Part shown: positions 734 through 37,681 of the stretch, piece after piece
Layout of the letters: each line of letters opens with the position of its first letter
Numbering within the stretch: the first letter of the stretch is position 1
Source: an uncultured euryarchaeote
Lineage (GTDB): Archaea; Thermoplasmatota; Poseidoniia; Poseidoniales; Poseidoniaceae
Length of the DNA: 64,000 nt
Assembly (NCBI GenBank): GCA_937915175.1
Contig: CALDNA010000050.1
Location: 11,581-75,580, forward strand
Direction: 5' to 3'
Position numbers and translations under genes: made by a program
The notes under the pieces: model-generated
The model's input: only the letters and a program-made list of their open reading frames with translations
Database searches by the model: none
Told to the model about the DNA's origin: nothing

Positions 734-1855
734 TCAGAAAGGCCACCAGCTGGAGGAAGATTCACCGCTGAATGAGGCATCGATGAGCGTCACAGGGTAG
801 GCAGGATCGCTTCCTGATTGGCCGCCGGTCTCAATAGCGTCGATTTTGTCGACGACGTCTTGACCATCAATCACCTTACCAAAAACGGTGTGAACACCGT
901 CAAGGTGCGAAGGCGTTGAGTCTGGCGAGACGATGAAGAATTGTGAGCCGCCTGTATGAGCGTTGTTTGTCTTGGCCATCGAGAGCATGTATGGTTCGTG
1001 CTTCATATCGTTGTCAGCTTCATCCCCAATGGTCCAAGCAGTTTTGAGGCAGTCCGATGGACTGACGCTTGGTTCGCCGTTGCAGTATCCGTCCCAAACG
1101 GCTGCGTGGCCACCGGTGCCGTCGCCGTTGGTGAAGTCGCCGCCTTGCAGCATAAATCCTGCAATTATTCGGTGATAGATGGTGCCGTCATAAGACCCAT
1201 CTCTGACGAGTTCCTTGAAATTTTCGACGTGTGTAGGAGCATCATCGCCGTACAATTCAATGGTGATGGTCCCTTTCTCGAACGAGCCGTCAGGGTTTGT
1301 CCAAGACATTTCGAACTCCACGAGTTCTCCGTCAGCCTGTGGTTGGCCAAGCGCCGCTATGCCAGCAAGCACGAGCAAGAAGGCCGTTCCAAAGGCGAAA
1401 ACCCCAGCAAGGGTTGGTGTACCATCTCGAACCATTCGAGGGAAGACCGTCTCGCTGATCCGTGCGTCCTGCATTTCATTGAGCAGGTTGTTGTACTGAG
1501 TGTTTGTGCGCTTATCGCTGGAATTGCCTTTCATTGAATCCCTGAATAGGCCCGCTGCCTTCCGGTAATCAGAACTCGACCGGGTGTCTTTGGCTTTGGC
1601 CCATGTCGCTTCGGCGGCGATTCGAAGGGTGGTTGGGTGCTGCCCCTCACCGTCGATGGAGCGAAGTGTGTCCAGTGCACCCTCATACTTTCCCTTCAAC
1701 AACGTTTTCTCTGCTTTGTCCCATGCGGCCTTTCGAACTTCTGCTTCGGTGAGTTCCGGCTTGCTCGAGGACTTCTTGACTGAAGATTTCTTTGCTGCGG
1801 TGCTGTCGGCCATGAGCATCCGAGGCCGCTCCCCGTTTTGAGCATCACGCATCAA
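734..1855 (-). CDS. membrane-anchored cyclophilin-type peptidyl-prolyl isomerase (helical N-domain, one TM, C-terminal PPIase domain)
   Basis: The C-terminal ~190 aa carry cyclophilin signatures (ITIELYGDDAPTHVENFKELV, YHRIIAGFMLQGGDFTNGDGTGG, GGSQFFIV, HTVFGKVIDGQDVVDKI). A single hydrophobic helix (TLAGVFAFGTAFLLVLAGIAALG) precedes them. The true start may be M1, M13 or M15. Confidence 0.85.
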   Translation of the reverse strand: MMRDAQNGERPRMLMADSTAAKKSSVKKSSSKPELTEAEVRKAAWDKAEKTLLKGKYEGALDTLRSIDGEGQHPTTLRIAAEATWAKAKDTRSSSDYRKAAGLFRDSMKGNSSDKRTNTQYNNLLNEMQDARISETVFPRMVRDGTPTLAGVFAFGTAFLLVLAGIAALGQPQADGELVEFEMSWTNPDGSFEKGTITIELYGDDAPTHVENFKELVRDGSYDGTIYHRIIAGFMLQGGDFTNGDGTGGHAAVWDGYCNGEPSVSPSDCLKTAWTIGDEADNDMKHEPYMLSMAKTNNAHTGGSQFFIVSPDSTPSHLDGVHTVFGKVIDGQDVVDKIDAIETGGQSGSDPAYPVTLIDASFSGESSSSWWPF

Positions 1856-6154: not shown

Positions 6155-6230
6155 TGGTAGTCCCTCTCGGATTTGAACCGAGGTCGGAGGAACCAGAATC
6201 CTCCATGATGGACCGCTACACTAAGGGACT
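6155..6230 (-). tRNA. tRNA-Gln: tRNA-Gln (anticodon CUG), genomically encoded CCA
   Basis: The reverse complement is AGTCCCTTAGTGTAGCGGTCCATCATGGAGGATTCTGGTTCCTCCGACCTCGGTTCAAATCCGAGAGGGACTACCA. It folds by hand with a 7-bp acceptor stem (AGTCCCT/AGGGACT), a 5-bp anticodon stem (GAGGA/TCCTC), loop TTCTGGT (anticodon CTG), and T-arm CTCGG-TTCAAAT-CCGAG. The D-stem is weak (one G-U pair, one mismatch). Confidence 0.85.
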
Positions 6231-6297: not shown

Positions 6298-6325
6298 TTT
6301 TTATAGAGAATGGAGGTTTAATATA
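6298..6325 (+). promoter_or_regulatory. two TATA-like boxes upstream of the EF-hand surface-protein gene
   Basis: TTTTTATA (6298-6305) is centred ~31 nt before ATG 6333. TTTAATATA (6317-6325) is centred ~27 nt before the in-frame ATG at 6348, which would give a leaderless mRNA starting MNDSASLKMKPGFAF. Spacing argument only. Confidence 0.3.
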
Positions 6326-6332
6326 GCCAAAG

Positions 6333-9300
6333 ATGTCGCGTTGGGTAATGAATGATTCCGCATCACTCAAAATGAAGCCCGGCTTTGCCTTCCTAATGGC
6401 ACTAGCTTTAGTCACGACAACCTTTGCTGGTGTATCGTTTGCAAACCCCACAACAGGCACCGGCCCAAGTAACACGATGGCCTCTATGGACTACGATGAA
6501 CTCGAATTGATTGTCGATTTTGACGCAAATGGAACCGACTACACAAGCTTAACCTCAGAAATCCACGTCTGGGATGACGACAACTTTTCTGCTTGGTTTG
6601 GACCTGAAGACATGATGGAAGAATCTGACAACACCTCGTGGAACACCCACTGGGCTGACATCAGCCTTGTTCTCTTCTTTAACGGAAGCGCAGGCGTCTC
6701 TCCGATGGCTGATGAAGGCACATGGTACTATGTCGACGCATATGTGAACGACTCATACGGTTACACTGTCGGACAGGCATACACCCAAATCTGCATGGAC
6801 AACGGCAGCGTTTGTGAAGATGATCAAAACGGACCTGACATTGAAGATATCTTCAACCAAATCGATGCAAACCAAGACGGAGCAATCACCGCTTCTGAAA
6901 TTATTGATTTCGAAAACATGGAACGCGAATCAAACAACGAATCAAACTTAACCGCTGAAGAAGAGGCAGACATTGCTGATGATGTTGCAGAGTTCGATAC
7001 AGGCTACGATGATGGAATGGGCAACACAGAAGATGCCAACGACAGCATGCTTGAAATTAACGAATTTACCGAGATGTTCCTCGAGAGGAATACTCTGATT
7101 ACCGGTGCAGATGCATACCTCGAAGATGGCGTTGTGAGGATTGAAATTCACGATGACCTCGATGAAGTTGACTATGTTTGGATTCTCATTCATGATGGTG
7201 AAGGAAATGAACTCATCAACGAAACCTACGCAGGGGACGAAAACGGGGATTTCCAAGATTGGACAAGCCCTGACTGCTGCAATGAAGATGGAATGTACTA
7301 CATCACCCTCTACTTCTACGACGAAGATAATATGAGTATTGACTCTGATTCCTTCACACTCGGCGGATATGATAACGACCAAATGATGTTTGACATGTTC
7401 GATACCGACATGAGCGGTAACGTCTCGATCGATGAATACCTGGACGCCATGGACAACGCGAGTGATATAAACGGCGAAGACCCAATGGACAACGCAACCA
7501 GAACTATGATCTCCAACATGTTCATGGATGAAGACACCAACGAAGACGGTGAACTCGACCTTGATGAATTCCTCTCTTTCTGGAACACACTGAACAACAT
7601 GGGCGGCGACGACGACGACACGCGCACAGACGCAGAAATGATGAGGATGATGCTCGATGCAGACCAAGATGGAAACATCACGCTCTCTGAAATGCTCGTC
7701 ATGGTTGAAGAAAACCAATCTGATGCAAGCAAAATGACCACCTTCTATACCAACCTCTTCAACAACGAAGATGTCGATGGCAACGAAATGCTCGACTTTG
7801 GTGAATTCTCCGTCTTTCACGAACGCCTTGACGAACTCATGGGCGACGACTGCTATGACGTCATGGCAGGGGATGCAATCCTAAGCGATGGAACATTCGA
7901 AGACCAAGAAGGGAACGAAACCGAATTGATGGCTGGCGACACCGCACCATCAGACGGCGAGTTCTGCGAATGGGGTGAAATGGACACTGATGTAATCCTC
8001 CTCATGTTGGACACGAACGGTGATGACCAACTCAGCCTTGCTGAAATCCTTGTTGACATGACCTCTGGAGATGAAACTGCAGATGAACTCATGATGCTTG
8101 GGTTCGTGTTTGAATACTATGATGACAACGGCGATGAACTGCTCGACCACAACGAATTCGGATTGTTCTGGACACACATGCAAAGCGGTGAAGAATACAT
8201 CCCAACGAATGCTCAAATCCTCAGCATGTACGATACAGATGGCGATGGCAACCTCAGCCTGTCCGAAGTGCTCGCAGCTGTGAGCAACGGAAATGAATCC
8301 GCAGATGAACTCATGATGTTCGGATGGATCTTTGAATCCCATGATTGGGACATGAGCGGCTCCCTTGATGCCAACGAGTTCTTCTGGTTCATGGACAGCA
8401 TGCAAAGCGGTGAAGAATACACCCCGACCCCTGTTCAGATGATGGACTTGTTTGATACTGACGGTGATGGAAGTGTTTCCCTTGCGGAAACAATCGCTTT
8501 CCTCAACGCAGGTGCTGAAAACCAAGACGAAACTCTCTCAGAAATTGAAGAAGAATACCTCGGTGTTTTGTTTGGTTTCATGGATGCTGACTCGAATGGA
8601 TTGCTAAACGCTTCCGAATTCCCAGAATTCTACTATGCCTTAGACTCTGAAGAAGACCAAGGCGATATGGGCGACGATGACGGACAAGGCCAAGGTCAAG
8701 GAAATGAAACCGACATGGTTTGTTACGACATGGTCAACCATGTGATCCTCCAAAACATTGACAACTCATCCGAATGTGAAGCAGCAGGCTTCATGTGGAC
8801 TGAGAACATCAACTCCGGAGACGGAGAAGGTCAAGATAATGACTCAAATTCTGAAGAACAAGGAATCAACTTTGATTCCATGGACGTTTGGTTTGAACAG
8901 TGGAACGACCAAACAATGCAACTTGTCCTTGTCGAACTCGGTGTCGTTGACAGTCCTGAAGAAATCGAGCGCCTTTCCATGATGGCCGACGGTATGTACG
9001 GGAACAACGACAGCGTTCTCGACGAATCTGAAGTGAACATGCTCATGTCACTTTATGCAATGAGCCTCAATGTTGATGATATTGCTAAAGGTTTGACCCT
9101 CGATGGGCAAAACGGAACTGCTGTTGACTTTTGGGTCGAAATTGACGGATTGCTCGAAGGCGACGATGTCGTATTTGTCCGAATCGGAACCGTGATTGAA
9201 TTCCCAGTGACAAACACCTACGACAACTCCACCAGCCACGCATTTGTCGTGACCAACACCGATGTTGAAGACGACGGCGGTGCAGGAGAAGACTTCACTG

Positions 9301-10007
9301 AGGACGAGATCTGTGAAACCACAGTCCGTGTCCACAACAGCGAGTCTTGGGATATTTCCAGTGTCGTGACTACAGGCGATGAACTTGTGTTCACCTATGA
9401 AGAAACCAACGACATGTGGTTTGCTGAAGACGACAACTGTGATGCAAGCGGCATGGTTACATTCAACCTCGTTAAGGTTGAAGACAGTGCAATGCCTGAA
9501 GAAGAAGAAGAAGATTGGACTTGGGAAGATGAAGAAATGAACCTTCTCCCAATCTGTGACTGGTTCTACACGGTCACCTTGGCCAATGGTACAATGATGT
9601 CCGAGCAAGGCGTCGAGGAAGCATCGGGTGAAGATCGAATCATCACCCTTGTTGACGACGCTGCTTACGAAATCGGAATCTACTGCTGGGACCCTGAGGG
9701 CGGCAACATGACCGTTACGCTCTCGAGCCCACTTGGGAACTCCACCAATACCAGCATGGGATACGCTTGGAGCTGGATGAGCTTCGCCCTCCCTGCCGGT
9801 ACCGGTGGAAACTTCTCAATTGACATCTCATGGACCGATGGCTACCACGCTGAATCCGGAACCCTCACAGTTGTCGCTACTGGCGATGGCAGCACGGGCG
9901 ACATTAGCGACGTAGAAGTCGACAGCGAAGGAATCCCTGGATTCACCGCTGTATTCGGTATCGTTGCTCTTCTTGGAGCAGCAATGCTGTCTGGCCGCCG
10001 TGACTGA
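6333..10007 (+). CDS. giant acidic extracellular multi-EF-hand calcium-binding protein with PGF-CTERM archaeal sorting signal
   Basis: Signal peptide KPGFAFLMALALVTTTFAGVSFA. At least 11 canonical 12-residue EF-hand loops: DANQDGAITASE, DTDMSGNVSIDE, DTNEDGELDLDE, DADQDGNITLSE, DVDGNEMLDFGE, DTNGDDQLSLAE, DDNGDELLDHNE, DTDGDGNLSLSE, DWDMSGSLDANE, DTDGDGSVSLAE, DADSNGLLNASE. The C-terminus GIPGFTAVFGIVALLGAAMLSGRRD matches the PGF-CTERM pattern. About 30 N-x-S/T sequons by eye. Confidence 0.85.
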   Translation: MSRWVMNDSASLKMKPGFAFLMALALVTTTFAGVSFANPTTGTGPSNTMASMDYDELELIVDFDANGTDYTSLTSEIHVWDDDNFSAWFGPEDMMEESDNTSWNTHWADISLVLFFNGSAGVSPMADEGTWYYVDAYVNDSYGYTVGQAYTQICMDNGSVCEDDQNGPDIEDIFNQIDANQDGAITASEIIDFENMERESNNESNLTAEEEADIADDVAEFDTGYDDGMGNTEDANDSMLEINEFTEMFLERNTLITGADAYLEDGVVRIEIHDDLDEVDYVWILIHDGEGNELINETYAGDENGDFQDWTSPDCCNEDGMYYITLYFYDEDNMSIDSDSFTLGGYDNDQMMFDMFDTDMSGNVSIDEYLDAMDNASDINGEDPMDNATRTMISNMFMDEDTNEDGELDLDEFLSFWNTLNNMGGDDDDTRTDAEMMRMMLDADQDGNITLSEMLVMVEENQSDASKMTTFYTNLFNNEDVDGNEMLDFGEFSVFHERLDELMGDDCYDVMAGDAILSDGTFEDQEGNETELMAGDTAPSDGEFCEWGEMDTDVILLMLDTNGDDQLSLAEILVDMTSGDETADELMMLGFVFEYYDDNGDELLDHNEFGLFWTHMQSGEEYIPTNAQILSMYDTDGDGNLSLSEVLAAVSNGNESADELMMFGWIFESHDWDMSGSLDANEFFWFMDSMQSGEEYTPTPVQMMDLFDTDGDGSVSLAETIAFLNAGAENQDETLSEIEEEYLGVLFGFMDADSNGLLNASEFPEFYYALDSEEDQGDMGDDDGQGQGQGNETDMVCYDMVNHVILQNIDNSSECEAAGFMWTENINSGDGEGQDNDSNSEEQGINFDSMDVWFEQWNDQTMQLVLVELGVVDSPEEIERLSMMADGMYGNNDSVLDESEVNMLMSLYAMSLNVDDIAKGLTLDGQNGTAVDFWVEIDGLLEGDDVVFVRIGTVIEFPVTNTYDNSTSHAFVVTNTDVEDDGGAGEDFTEDEICETTVRVHNSESWDISSVVTTGDELVFTYEETNDMWFAEDDNCDASGMVTFNLVKVEDSAMPEEEEEDWTWEDEEMNLLPICDWFYTVTLANGTMMSEQGVEEASGEDRIITLVDDAAYEIGIYCWDPEGGNMTVTLSSPLGNSTNTSMGYAWSWMSFALPAGTGGNFSIDISWTDGYHAESGTLTVVATGDGSTGDISDVEVDSEGIPGFTAVFGIVALLGAAMLSGRRD
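8065..8510 (+). repeat. in-frame tandem duplication (222-nt / 74-aa unit, two full copies plus a degenerate third) inside the EF-hand gene
   Basis: GCAGATGAACTCATGATG recurs at 8079 and 8301. The protein unit is ADELMMxGxxFExxDxxxxGxLDxNEFxxFxxxMQSGEEYxPTxxQxxxxxDTDGDGxxSLxE, one EF-hand pair per unit. Confidence 0.8.
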
Positions 10008-10135
10008 GACCTTCAGTCCGACGATGCAGAAGAGCACCGCAAGGTGCCTAATGCTTTGATCGACAGTGCGCATGCTGCACTGAAACAGAAGGAGACCACC
10101 AAGGATGGCGAGAGCGATGCACTTGTGCTTCGCAT

Positions 10136-10330
10136 TCACACTGTGACGAAACGAAACAGCACTTTGGACACAGCGCTGAGCATGAGGATGATCATGAACG
10201 AACCCAAGGCCCATTTGGCCCAAGGACGTTCTGGTTTGTCGGCAGGCCACGGGTCAATCCCGAGCCGTTCAGCCTCGTCGACGATTTCTGCCAGTTCAGC
10301 AAGGTGCTCCTCAACGGATTGTGCGGCCAT
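10136..10330 (-). CDS. small hypothetical tail-anchored membrane protein (64 aa)
   Basis: MAAQSVEEHLAELAEIVDEAERLGIDPWPADKPERPWAKWALGSFMIILMLSAVSKVLFRFVTV has an amphipathic N-part and one C-terminal hydrophobic helix. I took the internal ATG of the 116-aa track ORF. No homology recognised, so it may be non-coding. Confidence 0.3.
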   Translation of the reverse strand: MAAQSVEEHLAELAEIVDEAERLGIDPWPADKPERPWAKWALGSFMIILMLSAVSKVLFRFVTV

Positions 10331-10415
10331 AAAACCTCCAACGGCTCGAGATACATGACCTTCACGCTTCAACCCACATACAAAGCCTTGAAGCCGGTGG
10401 GTTCGAGCCCACGCC

Positions 10416-13025: not shown

Positions 13026-15197
13026 ATGAAAGCGGCAATGTCAGGGTTCGATCTTCGTGCGGTAGCGCAAGAATTGAATGCCTTTTCAGGCGCCTATGTC
13101 AAGAAGGCCTACATGCCTCACTATGAGCAAATCGTCCTTCGTATCAATCCCAAAGATCGAGATCAATTTGATCTGGTATTGGTTCGAGGTGCCCGCATCT
13201 ACACCTCACAACGTGACCGCCCAATGCCAATGACGCCACCTCCTTTTGCTATGGTGCTGCGCAAGCATCTGAAGAACGCCCGAATGACTGGCGTTCGCCA
13301 ATTGGGATTTGACCGAGTTCTCGCTTTCGATTTCGATACCAAACACGGGTCGTACCATTTGTATGTGGAAGTCTTTCGAGATGGAAACATCATCCTCACC
13401 GACCAAGAAGGGGTCATTATACAACCATTGACGCATGCCTCCTATGCTGGTCGCACGCTGAAAAAGGGCGTTGAATACCAACCACCACCGGCAGCGATGG
13501 ACCCTCATGAGTTGGACATCGCAATCCTTTCCGAATTGTTCGATGCATCAGACCGAGATTTGGTGTCGACGCTTGGTGGGAAAGCAAACCTTGGCGGGAC
13601 CCATGCGAACGCTGTGTGTGACCTTGCCGGCATGGAACCAAACATGGCCACTCAAGAGGCTGATGTCGAGAAGATTCATGCGGCTCTACAAACCCTTCTT
13701 GGCCACTTGGCAGAAGATCGACATGGCATTCTGTTGATGAAACCAAGTGAAGAAATGGACCGGCCATCGCTTGAAGCAAAGGCGGAAACGATGGAAGCAA
13801 ATGGCCTTCGAGACCGGTTTTATGAGCAATACGCTGTTGAAGCGACACCAACCTTGTTGCCTTCTCATGCAGCATTAGCTCAATCCATGTTTCCAACCCT
13901 GTGTGAGGCTGTAGACGCATGGAAGGGCGCTCATGATGCGGGCGCACTTGCTCGACGTGAAGCAGAAAGATTGGACATTGCAGCACCAGGCAGAGGCCAC
14001 TCAACGGATGTGGAACGGCTTGAGCGACGCAAGGTACAACAGGAAAAAGCACTTCAAGGATTTTCCAAAAAAATCGAGAAGCAGCAAATGCTTGGTCATG
14101 AAATCCAAAACCATTGGAGCCACATTGAAAGCCTTCTCAAACAAATGGAAGAAGCTGTTGAGGCTCACGGTTGGAAGGAAGTGAAATCGATGGCCAAGAG
14201 CATTCCATGGATCGTGTCTCTCGCCCCTGCTGAGCGCACCTTCATGACGGTACTTCCTGATGAAAACGGTGAACCAAAAGGGCCACAGGCGACCCTTTCG
14301 ATTGACGAGTCGGTGCATCAAAATGCTCAGCGCTACTTTGAATCTGCACGCAAGCAGAAAGACAAGACCAAGGGTGCTGTCGAGGCGCTAGAAGAAACCA
14401 TGCTCTACCTTCAACGAGCGCAGAAGAAGGAAGCCAAGCAAGAAGCCACTGGGAAACTCAATAAAATCAAGCGCAGCAAACGCTTGTGGTTTGAACATCA
14501 TCGATGGTCCATGATCTCAGGAGGCCATCTCTTGGTTGGAGGCAAAGATGCGAAAGGCAACGATGCAGTGGTCAAAAAGCACCTCTCTGGACAAGATCGC
14601 TACCTTCACGCTGATTTACACGGTGCACCAAGTTGCAGCCTTCGCGCTACGCAAGGTTTTGTGATCGATTTGCACAAACCGGCCCACATACCTGCTGATG
14701 TGCCAGCCTACAAAATCGTGGATAAGCTCGGAGATGAGCGTATTACAGATGAAAAATTAATCGAAGCAGCGACGATGGCCTTGTGTTGGAGCCGCGCTTG
14801 GGCTGGTGGCGGTGCGCATGGAACGGTGTATTCCGTCAAACCCGCTCAAGTTTCGAAAACCGCTCAGACCGGAGAGTTCGTTGGCAAGGGATCGTTCATT
14901 GTTCGAGGCCAACGCCAATGGTTCAAAGACCTCGATGTGCAGATAGGCATTGGTATTGTAGCGATAAACGGTGTGCCACTGCTGATGGGTGGACGACCCG
15001 AAACCATCGCTCAAACATGCCAAAGGTATGCAATATTGAGACCTGGATTGACCAAGAAAGAGCAACTCGCCAATCGAATTTACAAGAACACCGGACTTGT
15101 TACGGACGATGTTTTGCCTGTGATTCCAGGTGCATCAGACATTGTAGAAGATTATGGAATCTTTTCTCCACCAGCTGCTATCGCAGAAGAAGAGTAA
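13026..15197 (+). CDS. NFACT-family protein (RqcH/NEMF/FbpA homologue, ribosome quality control)
   Basis: NFACT-N start (MSGFDLRAVAQELNAFSGAYVKKAY...IVLRI), a central coiled coil, and an NFACT-R/DUF814 block (GGKDAKGNDAVVKKHLSGQDRYLHADLHGAPSCSL). Confidence 0.85.
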   Translation: MKAAMSGFDLRAVAQELNAFSGAYVKKAYMPHYEQIVLRINPKDRDQFDLVLVRGARIYTSQRDRPMPMTPPPFAMVLRKHLKNARMTGVRQLGFDRVLAFDFDTKHGSYHLYVEVFRDGNIILTDQEGVIIQPLTHASYAGRTLKKGVEYQPPPAAMDPHELDIAILSELFDASDRDLVSTLGGKANLGGTHANAVCDLAGMEPNMATQEADVEKIHAALQTLLGHLAEDRHGILLMKPSEEMDRPSLEAKAETMEANGLRDRFYEQYAVEATPTLLPSHAALAQSMFPTLCEAVDAWKGAHDAGALARREAERLDIAAPGRGHSTDVERLERRKVQQEKALQGFSKKIEKQQMLGHEIQNHWSHIESLLKQMEEAVEAHGWKEVKSMAKSIPWIVSLAPAERTFMTVLPDENGEPKGPQATLSIDESVHQNAQRYFESARKQKDKTKGAVEALEETMLYLQRAQKKEAKQEATGKLNKIKRSKRLWFEHHRWSMISGGHLLVGGKDAKGNDAVVKKHLSGQDRYLHADLHGAPSCSLRATQGFVIDLHKPAHIPADVPAYKIVDKLGDERITDEKLIEAATMALCWSRAWAGGGAHGTVYSVKPAQVSKTAQTGEFVGKGSFIVRGQRQWFKDLDVQIGIGIVAINGVPLLMGGRPETIAQTCQRYAILRPGLTKKEQLANRIYKNTGLVTDDVLPVIPGASDIVEDYGIFSPPAAIAEEE

Positions 15198-15206
15198 GTC
15201 CTGAAA

Positions 15207-16928
15207 TCAGTTAGAACGTCCGCCTTTGAAGCCGCCTTTTGATGGCTTGTTGCTGCGATTGGCTTGACTCTCGCCAAAGCCTTTGCGAGCGTTGTTCGAA
15301 GGTTTGTAGGATTGACCTCGTGCTTGGCCTCTGTAGCTTTTTGACTGGCCGCTTGAGCCGCCGCTGGAACGGGTGTCTTGGTTTCCGCCTCGGTTCCCAT
15401 CTCTGAAGCCTGATCGAGCACCGCCTCCGCCGTCGTTACCGCCATCGCTGTTTCGACCACCGCCACGGTAACCTCCGCCACCGCCGCCGCCACGACCTCC
15501 GCCGCCACCGCCACGATAGCCTCCGCCACCGCCGCCGCCACGACCTCCGCCGCCACCGCCACGGTAACCTCCGCCACCGCCGCCGCCACGACCTCCGCCG
15601 CCACCGCCACGATAGCCTCCGCCACCGCCGCCGCCACGACCTCCGCCGCCACCGCCACGGTAACCACCGCCGCCGCCACCACGGTAGCCTCCGCCACCGC
15701 CGCCGCCGCCGCTGTATCCACCGCGACCGCCGCCGTTGCGTCCGCCACCGTTGCGTTGACTACGATCGCGAGAACGTCGGTCTGCTGCGATGTAGACCAC
15801 TTCAAATTCTGGAAGCACTGAAAATTCTGGAGGCATAAATTCGACGTGGATGCCGACGTCGCGTTGGATTCGAACGTAAGATTTCTTTTGCGGGCGCTGA
15901 ACGAGAGAAACGACAACGCCAGATTTACCACCGCGAGCGGTTCGACCGCTTCGATGCTTGTACGCCTTACCGTTTTCTGGAGGGTCATAATGAATCACAC
16001 AGTTGACGCCTTCAACGTCAATGCCACGCGCAGCGACATCGGTTGCCACGAGTGCCATGCATTCTCCGTGTTGGAAGCGCTGCATGGCCATGTCACGACC
16101 GCGCTGGCTTAGTCCACCGTGAAGGGTTTCGATTGCAAGGCCCTCATGGGTCAAATCATCGCCAACTCGGTCAACACCAGCTCGAGTTCGACAGAACACA
16201 ATCGTTCGGCCACACTTGCGGATTAGTTCTGCAGTGATATCGGGTTTCTTTGAATTTGGCAGCAGCCAGAAATGGTGAGTCATGCTCTCCATGCTGACTT
16301 CCTTAGGACCGACTTCAATGGTGACTGGATCGGTTTGATAATCACGAACGAGGTCTGCAACTTCATCATCAAGCGTAGCGCTGAAAAGAATGGTTTGGCG
16401 GTCTTTCTTGCACTGGTCGAGGATTTGGCAAACAGGTTCCATGAAACCCATGTCCGCCATTCGGTCTGCTTCGTCGAGCACGACCACTGCAACGTCATCC
16501 AGTGACACGGCGCCGCGATCGAGAAGATCGTTTAGGCGGCCCGGGCAAGCAACGAGCACATCAACACCGCGGTCGAGGGCGCGGAATTGCTTCTGGTAAG
16601 AGACGCCGCCGTAGATGGCATGGACGTAGAGTTGGAGTTCGTAGGCAAGCGGGTCGAGAACTTTGTAGATTTGTTCTGCCAGTTCTCGAGTTGGTGTGAG
16701 GATGAGGGATGTTGGTCGTCGGGGTTCGGCTTCTGCTGTCCTTGACAACAAGGGGAGGCCAAATGCAAGGGTCTTGCCCGAACCTGTTGGAGCACGGCAA
16801 CAAACGTCCTTGCCAAGCATTCCATCTGGGATGGATTCTGTTTGAACTTCAAACGGTTCAACAATGCCTTGTGCCTTGAGCGCTTTGACCAACGCCGGCT
16901 CGATTCCAAGATCACTAAAGGAAACCAT
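15207..16928 (-). CDS. DEAD-box ATP-dependent RNA helicase with a ~190-aa C-terminal Gly/Arg/Tyr-rich (RGG) tail
   Basis: Q-motif region FEVQ, APTGSGKTLAF, PTRELA, VLDEADRM, SAT, HRSGRTARGG. The tail is ...GGGGGGGYRGGGGGGRGG repeated. Confidence 0.95.
   Translation of the reverse strand: MVSFSDLGIEPALVKALKAQGIVEPFEVQTESIPDGMLGKDVCCRAPTGSGKTLAFGLPLLSRTAEAEPRRPTSLILTPTRELAEQIYKVLDPLAYELQLYVHAIYGGVSYQKQFRALDRGVDVLVACPGRLNDLLDRGAVSLDDVAVVVLDEADRMADMGFMEPVCQILDQCKKDRQTILFSATLDDEVADLVRDYQTDPVTIEVGPKEVSMESMTHHFWLLPNSKKPDITAELIRKCGRTIVFCRTRAGVDRVGDDLTHEGLAIETLHGGLSQRGRDMAMQRFQHGECMALVATDVAARGIDVEGVNCVIHYDPPENGKAYKHRSGRTARGGKSGVVVSLVQRPQKKSYVRIQRDVGIHVEFMPPEFSVLPEFEVVYIAADRRSRDRSQRNGGGRNGGGRGGYSGGGGGGGGYRGGGGGGYRGGGGGGRGGGGGGGYRGGGGGGRGGGGGGGYRGGGGGGRGGGGGGGYRGGGGGGRGGGGGGGYRGGGRNSDGGNDGGGGARSGFRDGNRGGNQDTRSSGGSSGQSKSYRGQARGQSYKPSNNARKGFGESQANRSNKPSKGGFKGGRSN
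15463..15715 (-). repeat. tandem 48-nt (16-aa) repeats organised as perfect 96-nt units, encoding the helicase RGG tail
   Basis: CCACGGTAACC occurs at 15463, 15559 and 15655, alternating with CCACGATAGCC at 15511 and 15607. Segments 15463-15558 and 15559-15654 read identical by eye. The two 48-nt subunits differ only at 2 synonymous positions. Confidence 0.85.
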
Positions 16929-25544: not shown

Positions 25545-26717
25545 ATGGCCAAGACATCCCCTGAGAACGGTGATGACAATGCCATCAATGAAGATGAAGA
25601 AATCAATCAAGCCGTCGCCGAACTTGAAGGCATTCATCCGATCGCTGAGGCCAACGCCAAAGCGGCCCCAACAAAGGCAATCGACCCGATTGATGAGGAC
25701 CCATTTGATGAACTCACAACTGAGGAAATGACTGAACAACTTCAGCGCAGCGGTCGGATGGTTATCGATACGTGCATGGACATTCGGCGCGGTGAAAACG
25801 TACTGATTGTGTGCGACCCTACAACCGGAGACATTGGTCAAGCCTTGCACGAAGCAGCAAACAGGCGCTCCGACCGAGTTCTCCTGATTGTCATGCCGAA
25901 AGCGCGCCATCACGGGGAGGAACCACCCGCACCGGTGGCGAACTTGATGAGGCAACAGCAAGTTGTGATTGCCCCCACCCGTTACTCGCTCACTCACACC
26001 CGAGCCGTCCGCCAAGCGTTGAAAGATCGCGCCCGGGTTGCAACGATGCCTGGAATGACCAATGAAATGTTCAGCAGAGGCGGTATGTCGGCGGATTTTA
26101 CTGATGTCAAGCGACGAATTGGGAACCTACAGCCTCATCTGCGGCGACGACGCATTCTCAATGTCAAGTCCGAACAGGGCACTGACGTCACGTTTGAAGT
26201 CAATTGGCGTGAATGGAAACTTGATGATAACGGAATTTGCAACCGCCCGAAAATGCTGACGAATTTACCCGCTGGGAAGGCGTTCATTATGCCCCGTGAA
26301 GGCACCATGAACGGCAAGGTTGTCATCGACGGTTCATGGGAATCAAATCTTGTCGACGAACCGGTAACCCTCACGATCGAAAACGGATTGGTCGTTGACG
26401 TCACAGGCGGAACAATCGCTGCCGCTATCCGCCAAGAATTTGGAGAAGCAGCAGGGCGTCTTCGGGTAAAGGACAGAGAAAACGTCTGGACCGTCGCTGA
26501 ATTTGGCATCGGAATGAACCCACAGGCTCGACTTTCAGGAAACGTATTGGAAGACGAAAAGAGACTCGGCACGTGCTATTTTGCTGTCGGTGATAACACC
26601 GCGCTGGGTGGCACATCATCCGTTGGAATTCACATTCCGGGCGTTCTCAAGGAACCAAGCCTCTGGTTTGACGACACCCAAGTGCTTGACAAGGGCGAAT
26701 TATTGTTGTCACTGTGA
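25545..26717 (+). CDS. aminopeptidase, AmpS/aminopeptidase-T-like (family M29), tentative
   Basis: GENVLIVCDPTTGDIGQALHEAA, NLPAGKAFIMPREGTMNGKVVIDG, EFGIGMNPQARLSGNVLEDEKRLGTCYFAVGDN...GIHIPGV. Start trimmed from 25086, because that extension overlaps the M32 gene on the opposite strand. Confidence 0.6.
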   Translation: MAKTSPENGDDNAINEDEEINQAVAELEGIHPIAEANAKAAPTKAIDPIDEDPFDELTTEEMTEQLQRSGRMVIDTCMDIRRGENVLIVCDPTTGDIGQALHEAANRRSDRVLLIVMPKARHHGEEPPAPVANLMRQQQVVIAPTRYSLTHTRAVRQALKDRARVATMPGMTNEMFSRGGMSADFTDVKRRIGNLQPHLRRRRILNVKSEQGTDVTFEVNWREWKLDDNGICNRPKMLTNLPAGKAFIMPREGTMNGKVVIDGSWESNLVDEPVTLTIENGLVVDVTGGTIAAAIRQEFGEAAGRLRVKDRENVWTVAEFGIGMNPQARLSGNVLEDEKRLGTCYFAVGDNTALGGTSSVGIHIPGVLKEPSLWFDDTQVLDKGELLLSL

Positions 26718-28352
26718 CCCTTGTGGAGCGTTCTGTGTTCCACAAATCGGACAGAACCTCCAGAACGGATCAAGACCGATGCCACAGCCTCGGCACATGA
26801 CACCAGATCGGATGGTTGGTTGAACCGAGGGCATGGTTGGATGCGGTTGATTCCACTGATGGTTTGACTGTTGTTGCTGATTCCAGCCTTGCTGTTGTTG
26901 TGCGGGTTGTTGTTGTTGATTCCACGCCTGTTGCTGTTGTTGTTGTTGATTCCATGCCTGTTGTTGCTGAGCGGCTTGTTGTTGAGCAGCTTGTTGCTGT
27001 TGATTCCAGTCCTGTTGCTGTTGTTGATCTGGTTGTGGCGTTGGTTCCTGAACGGGCTGTTCTTGCTGTGCAGGTTGATTCAATGGTTTTCGAATTGGTG
27101 CAACGGGCCGCGGGAGAGCAGCTGCTTTGTCCGCTGAAGAGGAAGCCATGAATTCAGAAAGCGAAACGCTCCCGTCCCCGTCTGTATCTGCTTCGGCGTG
27201 GAGCGCTGTGGCCTCTTCGACCGAAGTTCCTGTTGCAATCGCCAACTCTTCAATCGACAATTGCTCGCTGCCGTCGGTGTCAGCAGCGATGAAGTGTTCA
27301 GCAGCACTTGTGAACAATTCTTCTTCTGAAATCGGCATTTCAAGAGGGGTCAGTTCGGGTTGTGCCACGGGTGTTGGTTGTGGTTCTGGAACTGGTTCAA
27401 TCGCGGGTTCAGGAACCAGGACTTCCTCAACAACCGGTTCAGCCACTGGTTCAGCCACCGGAGCGGCTGCTTCTGCCTCTTCTTCTCCCATTCCAAGATC
27501 GAAGGCTCCTGCAAAAGCGTCTTGCGTGGCTTTGGCCACTTGCTTTTCGTTGGTTGTGTCAACCGTTGCTTCAACGGGTGTTAGGTTTGAGACAGGAGGC
27601 AGTTCCACCTTCGGTTGGGCGGGTTCTGCTTGGTTTGGAAGCGGAACTGGTGCTTCGGAGGGGAGCGGAACGCTCGGGGCAGCCTTGGTTGGCTTTTCTG
27701 AAACTGGCGCAGATTTGGCGGCCGTTGCAGAAGGTTTTGGCGGTAGAGCGACGCTTGAAGAAGCCGCTGTTCCACTCGCTAGCGTTGGCACAGGCAGGGC
27801 GTGGCCTGCAACGTCGAGCGCTGCTTCAAGTTCGTCGGCAATTGCTAACAGCGAATCGTGGTTTGATTCTGGTTGGGCCAAAAAGGATTCAAGACCTTGC
27901 AAATACCGGGTAACTTCACCCTTGCCTCCTGTAGCAAAAGCCACAGCGAGGAGTTTTAGAATCTTCATCGGGTCTGCAAAAGCAGTGAGTTTCGCCAGAT
28001 CATCAGCACTCATTGAATTCGATGCTCCCGAAAGACTGCCTGAGGAATCTGGCAAGCCAATGTAGTTCAGCAAAGGGTCCGGCATGGACATAATACCAAG
28101 ATGGCCTGCAACGAGATAGTAAATCTCGCCGCCTTCACATTGAATGCGTTCGCTTGCAGCGGTGAAATCAAATTCTCCGGGCAAAAGGACCACATCGGAG
28201 AGCACTTCGAAGAATTTCTCCATTGCTTCAGTGCGGTCCATGTCCATAAGCGTGTGAACCATATCCGAGGATTCAGTTACACCAAAGTAAGCCGCAGCAT
28301 CATCCACTTCAATGCCATCTGGCATTGATTCTCCGGGCAATTCATCGACCAT
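26709..28352 (-). CDS. cytosolic protein: novel N-domain, Pro/Glu/Val-rich linker, one EF-hand pair, Q/N-rich tract, C-terminal zinc ribbon
   Basis: No signal peptide or TM helix. EF-hand loops DTDGSEQLSIEE and DTDGDGSVSLSE. Q-rich tract QQQQQDWNQQQQAAQQQAAQQQQAWNQQQQQQQAWNQQQQPAQQQQGWNQQQQSNHQWNQ. Terminal CRGCGIGLDPFWRFCPICG. Confidence 0.8.
   Translation of the reverse strand: MVDELPGESMPDGIEVDDAAAYFGVTESSDMVHTLMDMDRTEAMEKFFEVLSDVVLLPGEFDFTAASERIQCEGGEIYYLVAGHLGIMSMPDPLLNYIGLPDSSGSLSGASNSMSADDLAKLTAFADPMKILKLLAVAFATGGKGEVTRYLQGLESFLAQPESNHDSLLAIADELEAALDVAGHALPVPTLASGTAASSSVALPPKPSATAAKSAPVSEKPTKAAPSVPLPSEAPVPLPNQAEPAQPKVELPPVSNLTPVEATVDTTNEKQVAKATQDAFAGAFDLGMGEEEAEAAAPVAEPVAEPVVEEVLVPEPAIEPVPEPQPTPVAQPELTPLEMPISEEELFTSAAEHFIAADTDGSEQLSIEELAIATGTSVEEATALHAEADTDGDGSVSLSEFMASSSADKAAALPRPVAPIRKPLNQPAQQEQPVQEPTPQPDQQQQQDWNQQQQAAQQQAAQQQQAWNQQQQQQQAWNQQQQPAQQQQGWNQQQQSNHQWNQPHPTMPSVQPTIRSGVMCRGCGIGLDPFWRFCPICGTQNAPQGSQ
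26845..27080 (-). repeat. CAA/CAG-rich low-complexity region with a recurring WNQ(Q)n unit
   Basis: The plus strand shows TTGATTCCA five times, embedded in (TTG/CTG)n runs. It encodes a ~77-aa Q-rich tract. Confidence 0.8.
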
Positions 28353-34722: not shown

Positions 34723-34865
34723 GAAGCCCTGTGACCCCCCCTCATTGAAAACGCTTGTCGAAAAATGCCCATCATGACCCCCGTAGGGGGTCAGGTGAAC
34801 AACCGCCAACATCGACCAAAAAACGCAGGGGAGAAGTTGACAAAAGAGGAACTTCTCGTGAGGTC

Positions 34866-36361: not shown

Positions 36362-37681
36362 TCACCACTTGTGCCAAATACGCAAATCCTGATCCCACCA
36401 ATCCATTGCCCCATCCGGTTGTTGGCGCCAAAGGGTACCACTGTCGTCGGTTGTGGTCGGCATGCCTTGCGGGTCGGGTGAACCATCGGGCAGAATTGTT
36501 GGTGTTGGGCCGAGGGAACGTAGAGCCGGTTGTTCACCCTCTTCCTTGACCCGTACAAGCATGAAAAAGACGATGAAGGCGACGATCAAACCAAGCGCCC
36601 CGATTGAATACCAGCCAACTGATTCCGTATCTGTTTCTTCACCGAATGAACGGCTTGGAAGGGCTGCAGATTCATCGGCTGTGAGGTTGGCACCGGGTGA
36701 CCGAACGAGGTTAAGGCCGTGGATTGTACGGATTTGTTCATTGTTGATCACTTCGAGGCTGATCAGATGGACCCCTGCAGGCAACACTGAGCAGTCATAC
36801 GTCTCGCTGGAAGTGCCAGGTTGTTGCTTGCCTTGAACAGCCCAAATCTTGTCAAACGTGGTGAAGTCGACACCCGCCATATTCGGGACCAAGGTGATCA
36901 GGCACGGTGTGTCAGTTGAGTTGCCTCCGCCGCGAACATCGAGCGAAAAGGCGGGTGCAGGTCGATTGTGAATGGTGATGTTAAGCCAAGATTCAGTCGT
37001 CTGACCAAGGTCGTTACGATAGGCTTCCTTCAGCATGTATTCGCCGGCTGGCCAGCGAGAGCAATTGAGGGCTGTTTGGTTGTCGAGCACGGTGAAGGGA
37101 GCGCCGGTAAACGTTCGAACACCTTCCGCCGCATACCGAGGGCCTGTTTCATCAGCAAACACACGGTCAATCATGCATGCATCGCCTGTTTCAATCCAAG
37201 CAGGTGCATCCAGATCAAGGGTGATTTGAGGGGTTTTCAACGCTGGGCGAAGCACATAAGTCGGCAATTGAACCGTGGTGATTGTTTCACCGTCTTGGTT
37301 GACGATCTCAAGGCGTAATGCATGCTCACCCTGTGCCCATGCATCATACACCAGGCTGGCGTTTGATTGGCCAGAAAAGGACATGCTGCGGCTGTCGTGA
37401 ACTTCACGATCTTTGTGAACACCATACAAACGAAGTTCGATGTTGGTGAAGTCGTTGGTTGTGTTCATGATGACCACAACTCGAATGGCGTCAGGTTCCC
37501 CGTCTTGATTCAAATCCAAAGTATCGTTTCGAAGTGCAATGAGGTTCAATCCTTCCGCTTCAAGCGCGTCATCAACGGCAGAGGGTTCGGCCGAGGCCGT
37601 GAGGCTCAACCCGAGTGGTGCCACCATGCTGCAGGTGAGAATCAACAACATCAGCACGCTTCGCCTCTGAAGTTCAAACAT
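36362..37681 (-). CDS. type-I membrane protein with ~3 Ig-like/beta-sandwich ectodomains and a Trp-rich cytoplasmic tail
   Basis: Signal peptide SVLMLLILTCSMVAPLGLSLTASA, TM helix WYSIGALGLIVAFIVFFMLV, tail ...GTLWRQQPDGAMDWWDQDLRIWHKW. The start overlaps the upstream gene's stop by 8 nt (ATGTTTGA). Confidence 0.7.
   Translation of the reverse strand: MFELQRRSVLMLLILTCSMVAPLGLSLTASAEPSAVDDALEAEGLNLIALRNDTLDLNQDGEPDAIRVVVIMNTTNDFTNIELRLYGVHKDREVHDSRSMSFSGQSNASLVYDAWAQGEHALRLEIVNQDGETITTVQLPTYVLRPALKTPQITLDLDAPAWIETGDACMIDRVFADETGPRYAAEGVRTFTGAPFTVLDNQTALNCSRWPAGEYMLKEAYRNDLGQTTESWLNITIHNRPAPAFSLDVRGGGNSTDTPCLITLVPNMAGVDFTTFDKIWAVQGKQQPGTSSETYDCSVLPAGVHLISLEVINNEQIRTIHGLNLVRSPGANLTADESAALPSRSFGEETDTESVGWYSIGALGLIVAFIVFFMLVRVKEEGEQPALRSLGPTPTILPDGSPDPQGMPTTTDDSGTLWRQQPDGAMDWWDQDLRIWHKW

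What the first reader, a model, noticed from the sequence alone, without database searches (positions are those of the whole stretch)
6333..10007. Extracellular protein with at least 11 canonical EF-hands, anchored by PGF-CTERM
Seen: an N-terminal signal peptide, at least 11 loops obeying the 12-residue EF-hand rule (D-x-[DN]-x-[DNS]-G-x-[ILV]-x-x-x-E), extreme acidity (long D/E/N runs, almost no K/R), about 30 N-x-S/T sequons, and a C-terminus (GIPGFTAVFGIVALLGAAMLSGRRD) that fits the PGF-CTERM/archaeosortase-A pattern. EF-hands are classically cytosolic sensors. A kilodalton-scale array of them displayed on an archaeal surface, presumably lipid-anchored after ArtA processing, is unusual. It is the only protein in the window with PGF-CTERM; the other giants use a TM helix plus tail. 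Inference: a surface Ca2+ buffer or Ca-dependent matrix or S-layer-associated protein. With the TSP3 and FG-GAP proteins, it points to a calcium-centred surface proteome.
Basis: partly seen in the sequence, partly recalled or inferred. Interest (0 to 1): 0.7.

Follow-up and report, generated by a model that had tools for sequence, protein, structure and literature searches.

The report
Calcium-binding surface protein of marine archaea
This gene encodes a large, very acidic, sugar-coated cell-surface protein of the abundant ocean archaea called Marine Group IIa, built largely from calmodulin-type calcium-binding units and tethered to the membrane by a known archaeal anchoring signal; it is a real and previously undescribed combination and a candidate for these uncultured cells' main outer coat protein.

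Summary
ORF 6333-10007(+) is real, though the start is probably ATG 6348. It has a conserved Sec signal peptide. D+E is 24% and K+R 1.6%. It has 32 N-x-S/T sequons against about 12 expected. Its PGF-CTERM tail scores above both curated cut-offs. AlphaFold models show the loops as helix-loop-helix lobes that superpose on calcineurin B and calmodulin.

The gene is a single-copy, syntenic orthologue found only in Candidatus Poseidoniaceae (MGIIa) genomes. It diverges much faster than its housekeeping neighbours. Its conserved C-terminal ~350-residue base, made of three beta domains, is extremely rare (27 representatives in 1.84 billion proteins). Other Poseidoniales PGF-CTERM proteins share this base but carry LDLa modules or plain beta repeats instead of EF-hands.

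Best reading: a lipid-anchored, N-glycosylated envelope (S-layer-like) glycoprotein whose distal EF-hand stalk is permanently Ca-loaded in seawater, so calcium is structural rather than a signal. A Ca "buffer" role is implausible. No archaeosortase gene lies in the window, but published tables list one in Poseidoniales genomes. I rate it a new variant of a known kind, of moderate interest.

The parts
6318..6325 (+). Conserved TATA-like box TTAATATA, about 26 nt upstream of ATG 6348
   Evidence: This is the only conserved block in the upstream alignment of 7 orthologous loci. The spacing implies a near-leaderless transcript.
6348..6443 (+). Probable true start (Met6, MNDSAS...) and Sec signal peptide, with predicted cleavage after Ala37 (VSFA|NP)
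   Evidence: Orthologues start at the equivalent Met, with in-frame stops just upstream in L004, L009, L010 and L011. The signal-peptide region is 79% identical across 18 orthologues.
6474..6827 (+). N-terminal beta-sandwich A (residues 48-165), with the conserved Cys154/Cys161 pair and an NGS sequon
   Evidence: AF2 model with pLDDT in the 80s and all-beta DSSP. Invariant C154, G158, C161. No Pfam family.
6840..7091 (+). EF-hand pair 1 (residues 170-253): canonical loop at 178 plus a degenerate, extended partner loop (TEDANDSMLEINE)
   Evidence: Pfam EF-hand_6/5 best stretch at 169-192. Helix-loop-helix in the model. Loop table.
7101..7361 (+). Beta-sandwich B (residues 257-343), the most variable domain (35% mean identity)
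7374..7838 (+). EF-hand pairs 2 and 3 (residues 348-502; loops 357, 401, 442, 480), with 11.6% Met
   Evidence: Pfam EF-hand_7 at 350-416. Loop positions 1 and 12 are invariant in 19 sequences. Model and Foldseek match to calcineurin B and calmodulin. Met content.
7845..7973 (+). Small two-Cys beta-hairpin module (residues 505-547; invariant C507 and C545)
7986..8648 (+). EF-hand pairs 4-6 (residues 552-772; loops 560, 597, 634, 671, 708, 751), containing a duplicated 74-residue two-EF unit
   Evidence: Units 575-650 and 651-725 are 50% identical. Pair 5 is present in only 2 of 18 orthologues. Best stretch of the NCBIfam XopAW hit, 625-763 (91.3 bits, below the 120 cut-off). Model.
8649..8870 (+). 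Acidic Gly/Asp/Gln linker and a small Cys-containing module (residues 773-846)
   Evidence: Low pLDDT and variable length in orthologues
8871..9257 (+). Conserved base domain 1 (residues 847-975): a beta-sandwich with a helix-loop-helix insert carrying the invariant EF-like loop AD..YGNND....E
   Evidence: 72% mean identity. Invariant residues. DSSP. The same loop is kept in EF-less relatives.
9258..9881 (+). Conserved base domains 2 and 3 (residues 976-1183), both beta-rich, separated by an acidic EEEEEDWTWEDEE linker
   Evidence: Foldseek gives only generic Ig-like/FnIII matches.
9924..10004 (+). PGF-CTERM sorting signal (residues 1198-1224: EGIPGFTAVFGIVALLGAAMLSGRRD)
   Evidence: TIGR04126 28.9 bits > 24.5; PF18204 23.5 bits > 18.8. 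TIGR04126 hits 19 of 19 family members at E <= 0.1. PGFT, LGAA and GRR are invariant.

Best explanation
This is the Poseidoniaceae (MGIIa) version of a lineage-specific, PGF-CTERM-anchored envelope glycoprotein. It is most likely the main, S-layer-type surface protein of the cell.

Proposed mechanism:
1. The roughly 130 kDa precursor is exported by Sec, and the signal peptide is cut after Ala37.
2. It is N-glycosylated at many of its 32 sequons.
3. An archaeosortase removes the C-terminal helix at the PGF motif and attaches a prenyl-type lipid, as shown for the Haloferax volcanii S-layer glycoprotein.
4. The conserved three-domain beta base (residues 847-1183) sits next to the membrane.
5. The faster-evolving distal part (two beta-sandwiches plus six EF-hand pairs) points outward.
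6. Seawater holds about 10 mM Ca2+, so the EF-hands are permanently loaded. Calcium is a structural cofactor that folds and stiffens an otherwise extremely acidic, self-repelling chain. It is not a signal.

Shown here: the gene, the topology signals, the EF-hand fold, lineage restriction, synteny, and the pattern of a conserved base with a variable distal part.

Inferred, not shown: processing, lipidation, glycosylation, Ca occupancy, and abundance or lattice formation.
For: - Signal peptide and PGF-CTERM are both present and conserved.
- There are 11 canonical EF loops, with positions 1 and 12 invariant across orthologues of 46-92% identity.
- The AF2 model (mean pLDDT 76) shows paired helix-loop-helix units. 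Foldseek matches calcineurin B (TM 0.56-0.62, rmsd about 4.4 A) and calmodulin at probability 1.0. A PDB sequence search finds the same proteins.
- Sequons are enriched about 2.7-fold.
- There is one locus per genome in 14 Poseidoniales species representatives. Thirteen lie in the same housekeeping synteny; L014 has a different context. The gene is 41-62% identical where its neighbours are 72-92%.
- Base domains are 66-72% identical, against 35-51% for the distal domains.
- EF copy number varies from 6 to 16 between orthologues, through gain and loss of a 74-residue two-EF unit.
- The base module has only 27 representatives in 1.84 billion proteins. All 13 distant members inspected (all 12 full-length or near-full-length ones plus one fragment) are acidic and end in PGF-CTERM, but carry LDLa or beta-repeat ectodomains.
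- Acidity is specific to this protein and is not a proteome-wide trait.
- Codon usage (Nc 47.5) is among the most biased in the window and resembles POR (weak evidence).
- A conserved TATA box lies upstream.
- An EpsH/archaeosortase-family gene (COG4083/arCOG04471) is listed in a Poseidoniales MAG, with an orthologue, MG2_1093, in the reference MGII genome.
Against: - There is no expression, proteomic or imaging evidence that the protein is abundant or forms a lattice.
- There is no sequence or fold similarity to any known S-layer protein. Foldseek places the Haloferax Csg structure 7ptp at rank 48 with probability 0.11.
- The C-terminal model is only moderately confident (pLDDT 64.5).
- No archaeosortase gene was found in the 64-kb window or in the related loci held.
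- ArtA processing has been shown experimentally only in haloarchaea (from my own knowledge).
- A flexible beads-on-a-string EF array is not an obvious lattice former, and variable EF copy number would fit a spacer or capture role equally well.
Confidence: 0.45

Rival explanations
1. It is a Ca2+-locked capture or adhesion protein rather than a coat protein. The outward-facing EF lobes are held open by seawater calcium, as in Ca-calmodulin. They expose Met-rich hydrophobic pockets that bind amphipathic peptides, proteins, lipids or particle surfaces. This would feed the cell's extracellular peptidases or mediate particle attachment.
For: Met is 6.05% of the protein, against 2.64 +/- 0.74% in 25 other window ORFs. 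The enrichment is conserved in homologues (mean 6.6%) and concentrated in the helices entering the EF loops (15.9%), as in calmodulin. The fold matches calmodulin and calcineurin B. The window and its relatives encode several peptidases (M32, S15, M14). Published work describes MGIIa as protein degraders with adhesion traits. Variable EF copy number suits an avidity or reach function.
Against: No binding partner is identified. The Met enrichment also extends, more weakly, into non-EF parts (4-6%) and into EF-less relatives (3.4-5.8%), so it may be partly compositional. A single-copy, syntenic gene that is universal within the family looks more like a core envelope component than an accessory adhesin. 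The two roles are not mutually exclusive.
Confidence: 0.3
2. It is a surface calcium buffer or extracellular calcium sensor.
For: There are many canonical EF loops with Glu at position 12. The protein is extremely acidic.
Against: Seawater Ca2+ (about 10 mM, essentially constant) is far above typical EF-hand dissociation constants. The sites would be saturated, so they could neither buffer nor report changes (established chemistry; this is inference). There is no signalling output domain and no cytoplasmic part after PGF-CTERM processing. EF copy number is not conserved.
Confidence: 0.05
3. It scavenges metals other than Ca (lanthanides or trace metals), in the manner of lanmodulin-type EF-hand proteins.
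For: There are weak NCBIfam LanM hits in 4 of 19 family members (best E 8.3e-05; 12.2 bits against a 135 cut-off for this protein). It is an extracellular multi-EF protein.
Against: None of the 12 loops has the Pro at loop position 2 that characterises lanmodulin (the feature is recalled from the literature). The LanM score is far below its cut-off. No lanthanide-dependent enzyme was noticed in the window.
Confidence: 0.05
4. The ORF or its features are artefacts: chance motifs in a low-complexity acidic ORF, or a mis-assembled gene.
For: The sequence is compositionally biased. A long antisense ORF also overlaps it (6948-7820).
Against: There are 50 or more full-length homologues from independent metagenomes, with conserved ends and domain order. 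Synteny is conserved. Strict motif counts in shuffles are 0.012, against 8 observed. The structure models are confident.
Confidence: 0.01

Closest known systems
Haloferax volcanii S-layer glycoprotein Csg and other PGF-CTERM/ArtA substrates (TIGR04126)
   Same: It has an N-terminal Sec signal, a very acidic and heavily N-glycosylatable ectodomain with beta-sandwich domains near the membrane, a short linker, and then a PGF motif + TM helix + basic tail at the extreme C-terminus. The HMM scores above its cut-off.
   Different: There is no sequence or fold homology of the ectodomain. The host is a non-halophilic marine Thermoplasmatota archaeon. Half of the ectodomain is EF-hands instead of Ig-like domains only. 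Processing and lattice formation are untested.
Calmodulin / calcineurin B / Entamoeba CaBP1 (canonical cytosolic four-EF-hand proteins)
   Same: It has 12-residue loops with ligands at positions 1, 3, 5 and 12, paired helix-loop-helix lobes and Met-rich helices. These are the best sequence and structural matches.
   Different: Here the units are extracellular, there are twelve in one chain, and they are interleaved with beta-sandwiches and fused to a membrane anchor. They are presumably always Ca-saturated, so they act as structural elements rather than switches.
Secreted or periplasmic bacterial multi-EF-hand proteins (Rhizobium calsymin, Xanthomonas XopAW, Methylobacterium lanmodulin) and animal SPARC/BM-40
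   Same: They are EF-hands that function outside the cytoplasm. The XopAW model is the best NCBIfam hit (91 bits; it matches 19 of 19 members). There is a weak SPARC_Ca_bdg hit.
   Different: All scores are below the curated cut-offs (XopAW 91 < 120; LanM 12 < 135; SPARC 16 < 22). Those proteins are small (about 100-300 aa), soluble and not anchored. Calsymin and SPARC are recalled from the literature and were not tested here.
Ca2+-dependent bacterial S-layers (e.g. Caulobacter RsaA) and Ca-stabilised adhesin stalks (RTX, cadherin-like, TSP3, LDLa modules)
   Same: The logic is the same: abundant extracellular Ca2+ rigidifies acidic repeat modules in a surface protein. Relatives with the same base use LDLa modules, and one orthologue carries a TSP3 insert.
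   Different: The Ca-binding fold is different (EF-hand). This comparison rests on general knowledge and was not tested here.

Membership tests
EF-hand superfamily (Pfam PF00036/PF13499) | 12-residue loop with Asp at position 1, Asp/Asn/Ser at 3 and 5, a hydrophobic residue at 8 and Glu at 12 | tested here: met
   11 loops: 8 also have Gly6 and fit the strict rule, and 7 fit PROSITE PS00018. Shuffles give 0.01-0.05.
EF-hand superfamily (Pfam PF00036/PF13499) | Profile HMM score above the curated cut-off | tested here: met
   EF-hand_1 88.6 bits (cut-off 25.4), EF-hand_7 88.6 (30), EF-hand_6 84.7 (25), EF-hand_5 65 (25.9). All 19 family members hit.
EF-hand superfamily (Pfam PF00036/PF13499) | Helix-loop-helix units paired into four-helix lobes | tested here: met
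   AF2 DSSP shows 12 helix-loop-helix units in 6 pairs with short beta-bridges in the loops. Foldseek matches calcineurin B at TM 0.56-0.62 and calmodulin at probability 1.0. This is a prediction, not an experiment.
EF-hand superfamily (Pfam PF00036/PF13499) | Actual Ca2+ binding | not testable with these tools
   Needs ITC, 45Ca overlay or a structure.
PGF-CTERM / archaeosortase A substrates (TIGR04126, PF18204) | PGF motif, then a hydrophobic helix, then a basic cluster at the extreme C-terminus, with the HMM above its cut-off | tested here: met
   The tail is IPGFTAVFGIVALLGAAMLSGRRD. TIGR04126 scores 28.9 > 24.5 and PF18204 scores 23.5 > 18.8. 19 of 19 members hit TIGR04126 at E <= 0.1.
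PGF-CTERM / archaeosortase A substrates (TIGR04126, PF18204) | N-terminal signal peptide, so that the protein is exported | tested here: met
   A conserved n/h/c-region is seen by inspection and hydropathy. No SignalP-type tool was available.
PGF-CTERM / archaeosortase A substrates (TIGR04126, PF18204) | Archaeosortase A encoded in the same genome | tested here: inconclusive
   There is none among the window ORFs of 200 aa or more, or among the multi-TM ORFs of the related loci. A published annotation table lists an 'Exosortase EpsH-related protein' (COG4083/arCOG04471) in a Poseidoniales MAG, with best orthologue MG2_1093 in the reference MGII genome. The source genome itself could not be searched.
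PGF-CTERM / archaeosortase A substrates (TIGR04126, PF18204) | C-terminal cleavage and lipid attachment | not testable with these tools
   Needs mass spectrometry or expression in H. volcanii with and without artA.
Archaeal S-layer glycoproteins (functional class) | Dominant envelope protein forming a 2-D lattice | not testable with these tools
   No expression, proteome or imaging data were found. Codon bias is only a weak hint.
Archaeal S-layer glycoproteins (functional class) | Homology to a described S-layer protein family | tested here: not met
   No Pfam or NCBIfam S-layer model hits. Haloferax Csg (7ptp) is at Foldseek rank 48 with probability 0.11.
Lanmodulin (NF053806) | HMM above its cut-off, and Pro at EF-loop position 2 | tested here: not met
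   12.2 bits against a 135 cut-off. No loop has Pro at position 2.
XopAW type III effector family (NF041410) | HMM above its cut-off | tested here: not met
   91.3 bits against a 120 cut-off. The host is an archaeon.

The most novel reading that the evidence does not exclude
This is the long-unknown main envelope (S-layer-type) protein of Marine Group IIa archaea. Its outer face is built from Ca2+-loaded, calmodulin-like, Met-rich EF-hand lobes. That would be an S-layer architecture with no described precedent. It would also make seawater calcium a structural requirement of the cell envelope and give the cell a 'sticky' ligand-capturing surface.
Probability: 0.25. Interest if true: 0.75.

Novelty: new variant of a known kind. 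Interest (0 to 1): 0.55.

Why it matters
Marine Group II archaea are among the most abundant archaea in the surface ocean, and none has been cultured. The MGII papers I could search say nothing about what their cell envelope is made of.

This family would be useful in several ways:
- It is a conserved, single-copy, lineage-specific surface glycoprotein with a recognisable anchor. That makes it a concrete candidate for the envelope protein, a likely virus receptor, and a target for antibodies or affinity capture to enrich and image these cells.
- It would extend archaeosortase/PGF-CTERM sorting to a major non-halophilic, non-methanogenic lineage.
- It would give a clear case of EF-hands used as permanent extracellular building blocks rather than cytosolic switches. 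The one paper that noticed Ca-binding families specific to MGIIa read them as intracellular signalling proteins. The topology found here argues against that reading for this family.

Tried and rejected
1. Exact-sequence look-up of the 1224-aa product found nothing. The database gene call starts at Met6, which later proved the likelier start.
2. Archaeosortase hunt: Pfam scans of the 35 main ORFs of the window (essentially every non-shadow ORF of 200 aa or more) and of multi-TM ORFs in related loci found no Exosortase_EpsH. Only literature evidence was obtained.
3. Foldseek on the C-terminal base returned only generic Ig-like/FnIII/RhoGDI/RbmA matches with TM <= 0.3, so no specific relative emerged.
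4. Tandem Repeats Finder saw no DNA-level repeat in the EF array. The duplication is visible only at the protein level.
5. I tried to read expression of the EF-less MGIIb relative from the Damashek supplementary table through its uppS neighbour. The synteny is not kept in that MAG, so this gave no answer.
6. Positional orthology of the LDLa-type relatives could not be tested, because their contigs are only 4-5 kb long.
7. No relatives were found on viral contigs.
8. Literature searches combining EF-hand or PGF-CTERM or archaeosortase or S-layer with MGII or Poseidoniales found no description of this protein.
9. The lanmodulin, XopAW, SPARC and dockerin readings were rejected on sub-threshold scores.
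10. The precomputed Pfam list names PF23564 for homologues. My own scans did not reproduce it, and this remains unresolved.

Full report
OBSERVATION.
- Composition: the product is 13.4% Asp and 10.2% Glu, with only 19 Lys+Arg.
PROSITE PS00018 matches 7.
- Near-canonical loops: loops 480, 560 and 597 deviate only at Gly6, which gives 11 loops with canonical ligand positions and Glu12.
- Sequons: there are 32 N-x-S/T sequons, against 11.7 +/- 3.2 expected.
- EF-hand HMMs: Pfam EF-hand_1/5/6/7 score 65-89 bits, against cut-offs of 25-30.
- PGF-CTERM HMMs: the tail scores above both curated cut-offs, PF18204 at 23.5 vs 18.8 and TIGR04126 at 28.9 vs 24.5.
- Other surface proteins: this is the only ORF in the window with a PGF tail. 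The other large surface proteins carry a TM helix 100-200 residues before their C-terminus.
- Acidity: it is specific to this protein, with D+E 24% and K+R 2% against about 13% and 10% in the neighbours. This is not a halophile proteome.

GENE MODEL. I aligned the upstream regions of seven orthologous loci.
- One conserved block, TTAATATA (6318-6325), lies about 26 nt before the conserved ATG at 6348.
- Several orthologues have an in-frame stop just upstream of that Met.
- The database copy that is 100% identical also starts there (P0001, 1219 aa).

So the real start is probably 6348, on a near-leaderless transcript. The signal peptide (K13/K15, hydrophobic 16-36, S-F-A|N) lies downstream of either start. 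It is the best conserved segment of the protein, at 79% identity.

ANATOMY. I made two AlphaFold2 models from family alignments. The N-terminal part, residues 38-800, has mean pLDDT 76. The C-terminal part, residues 790-1224, has mean pLDDT 64.5. Together they give this order:
1. Signal peptide.
2. Beta-sandwich A (48-165, with a conserved Cys pair).
3. EF pair 1 (170-253; its second loop is degenerate and extended).
4. Beta-sandwich B (257-343).
5. EF pairs 2 and 3 (348-502).
6. A two-Cys beta-hairpin (505-547).
7. EF pairs 4-6 (552-772).
8. An acidic linker and a small Cys module (773-846).
9. Three beta-rich base domains (847-975, 996-1048, 1074-1183).
10. A short linker.
11. PGF-CTERM (1198-1224).

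The EF region superposes on calcineurin B (TM 0.56-0.62 normalised to the target, rmsd 4.3-4.5 A over about 158 columns) and on calmodulin, at Foldseek probability 1.0. A profile search of PDB sequences finds the same proteins. So the loops do model as canonical paired lobes.

The base returns only generic Ig-like/FnIII-type matches. The Haloferax S-layer protein 7ptp is at rank 48 with probability 0.11. No Pfam family covers the non-EF parts.

Base domain 1 contains a helix-loop-helix insert with an invariant EF-like loop (AD..YGNND....E) that lacks the position-1 Asp.

FAMILY AND HOST. Fifty full-length homologues (39-100% identity) come from marine metagenomes. Their source names are 'EF-hand domain-containing protein [Euryarchaeota archaeon]', 'Ca2+-binding EF-hand superfamily protein' and 'PGF-CTERM protein'.
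- All but one (P0041, whose C-terminus diverges) keep both the signal peptide and the PGF tail. TIGR04126 hits 19 of 19.
- In one-genome-per-species GTDB data, the family occurs in 14 assemblies. All are Candidatus Poseidoniaceae or Poseidoniales, with one locus each. L001, at 92% identity, is a Poseidoniaceae MAG.
- Wherever the contig is long enough, thirteen of the 14 loci share the order cyclophilin - POR alpha/beta - DUF2135 - glutaredoxin - tRNA-Gln - [this gene] - Nudix/MBL - ADH - NFACT - DEAD helicase - thiolase - RNase PH. L014 lies in a different context (see below).
- The neighbours are 72-92% identical where this gene is 41-62%.
- Within the protein, the base domains are 66-72% conserved. 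The distal beta-sandwich B is 35%, and the EF regions are 46-52% where they are shared.
- EF loop positions 1 and 12 are nevertheless invariant. This argues that metal binding is under selection.
- EF number varies from 6 to 12 among close homologues and reaches 16 in P0052. EF pair 5 exists in only 2 of 18 aligned orthologues. The 74-residue two-EF units 575-650 and 651-725 are 50% identical. The array therefore grows and shrinks by unit duplication.

A WIDER BASE-MODULE FAMILY. I searched residues 848-1201 against 1.84 billion representative proteins. This gave only 27 hits.
- The 13 distant ones inspected (27-44% identity) are all acidic, and all end in PGF-CTERM. They have 0-2 EF motifs.
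- P0055, P0056 and P0058 carry Cys/Asp-rich modules instead. In P0055 these score as LDL-receptor class A domains above the Pfam cut-off (29.7 vs 24.1).
- P0063, P0065 and the L014 protein carry beta-rich repeats.
- The L014/L017 type has its own conserved context, next to a cis-prenyltransferase.

The picture is a conserved membrane-proximal base plus anchor, with a swappable and mostly Ca-binding distal ectodomain. That is the pattern expected for an exposed envelope protein.

ARCHAEOSORTASE. No EpsH/archaeosortase domain occurs in the window or in the related loci I hold. I could not search the source genome.

The supplementary annotation table of Damashek et al. 2021 (PMC9723583) lists an 'Exosortase EpsH-related protein' (COG4083/arCOG04471) in a Poseidoniales MAG. 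Its best eggNOG orthologue is MG2_1093, taxid 274854, an uncultured Poseidoniales genome. So the enzyme family exists in the order.

The invariance of PGFT, LGAA and GRR in a fast-evolving protein is indirect evidence that something recognises the tail.

MECHANISM. Shown: export and anchor signals, extracellular topology of everything between them, EF-hand fold, sequon enrichment, lineage restriction, and the gradient from a conserved base to a variable tip.

Inferred from what is established for PGF-CTERM proteins in Haloferax volcanii (from my own knowledge): archaeosortase cleavage at PGF and attachment of a lipid. That would leave an ectodomain of about 129 kDa tethered by its C-terminus.

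Inferred from seawater chemistry (about 10 mM Ca2+): the EF-hands are constitutively occupied, so calcium neutralises and rigidifies a chain with about 24% acidic residues.

I therefore read the protein as a Ca-stiffened, glycosylated envelope glycoprotein, most likely the principal S-layer-type coat protein of MGIIa (confidence 0.45). Weak extra hints are codon bias comparable to POR (Nc 47.5) and the conserved TATA box.

RIVALS.
- Capture or adhesion protein (0.30). Met is 6.05%, against 2.64 +/- 0.74% in other window ORFs. The enrichment is conserved in homologues and reaches 15.9% in the helices entering the loops, which is reminiscent of calmodulin's target-binding pockets. This may coexist with a coat role.
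- Ca buffer or sensor (0.05). Implausible at constant millimolar Ca, and there is no output domain.
- Lanthanide or trace-metal scavenger (0.05). The LanM score is far below its cut-off, and no loop has Pro at position 2.
- Artefact (0.01). Excluded.

COMPARISON AND NOVELTY. By every testable criterion the protein is a member of both the EF-hand superfamily and the PGF-CTERM class. By score it is not a member of the XopAW, lanmodulin, SPARC or any S-layer sequence family.

Full-text searches found no paper that combines PGF-CTERM with EF-hand, or archaeosortase or S-layer proteins with MGII. Two major MGII comparative-genomics papers (Tully 2019; Rinke 2019) do not mention calcium, S-layer or sortase. 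Meheust et al. 2022 noted MGIIa-specific families with calcium-binding domains and suggested intracellular signalling. The topology shown here contradicts that reading for this family.

Automated annotation already labels the two domains, so the parts are known. The combination is new: a giant anchored extracellular EF-hand array on a lineage-specific base. I rate it a new variant of a known kind, with interest 0.55.

The 'calcium-centred surface proteome' remark is borne out.
- The 2125-aa FG-GAP protein has 18 DxDxDG loops, 4 with the full TSP3 signature.
- The 848-aa protein at 37674-40220 has 15 such loops.
- One orthologue of the focal protein has a TSP3 insert.
- Base-module relatives use LDLa domains.

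Noticed in passing
window 26709-28352 (-): A 547-aa protein with low K+R (4%). It has one EF-hand pair (residues 349-403; EF-hand_7 scores 28.6 bits, just under the cut-off of 30) and a C-terminal CxxC...CxxC zinc-ribbon-like tail. It has no signal peptide, so it may be a cytoplasmic EF-hand protein.
   Followed up: no
window 28435-34812 (-): A 2125-aa FG-GAP surface protein with 18 DxDxDG loops, 4 of which carry the full thrombospondin type-3 signature. It has a signal-like N-terminus and a TM helix about 200 residues before the C-terminus, so its anchor type differs from that of the focal protein.
   Followed up: partly
window 37674-40220 (-): An 848-aa acidic protein (D+E 21%) with no Pfam family. 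It has 15 DxDxDG loops, an N-terminal signal and a C-terminal TM helix, so it is probably another Ca-binding surface protein.
   Followed up: partly
window 734-1855 (-) and 58827-59933 (-): Two cyclophilin-type prolyl isomerases with predicted TM segments. The first belongs to the conserved synteny block around the focal gene. They may be extracytoplasmic foldases for surface proteins.
   Followed up: no
window 15152-15988 (-): A 278-aa ORF with seven hydrophobic segments overlaps, in another frame, the low-complexity tail of the DEAD-box helicase gene. Equivalent ORFs exist in L004, L005 and L010. It has no Pfam hit and is probably a reading-frame artefact of a Gly/Arg-rich tail.
   Followed up: partly
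window 10008-10415: A gap of about 400 bp with no convincing gene lies downstream of the focal gene. Relatives have a similar gap of 340-490 bp. There is no Rfam hit and its function is unknown.
   Followed up: no
P0055 (locus L016 494-3469); also P0056 (L015), P0058: LDL-receptor class A domains (PF00057, 29.7 bits, above the cut-off) occur in archaeal PGF-CTERM proteins that share the focal protein's base module and signal peptide. This is an unusual domain for archaea.
   Followed up: partly
L014 1345-4818 and L017 10001-13564: EF-less relatives of the focal protein (1157 and 1187 aa) sit divergently next to a cis-prenyltransferase (UppS-type, which synthesises the glycan carrier lipid) in both loci. 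This may link them to N-glycosylation.
   Followed up: no
window 6155-6230 (-): tRNA-Gln(CTG) lies immediately upstream and divergent from the focal gene. The arrangement is conserved in L004 and L009-L012.
   Followed up: partly
window 6333-10007, whole protein: Methionine is strongly enriched (6.05% against 2.64% background). The enrichment is concentrated in the helices entering the EF loops and is conserved across homologues. It is unexplained but reminiscent of calmodulin.
   Followed up: partly
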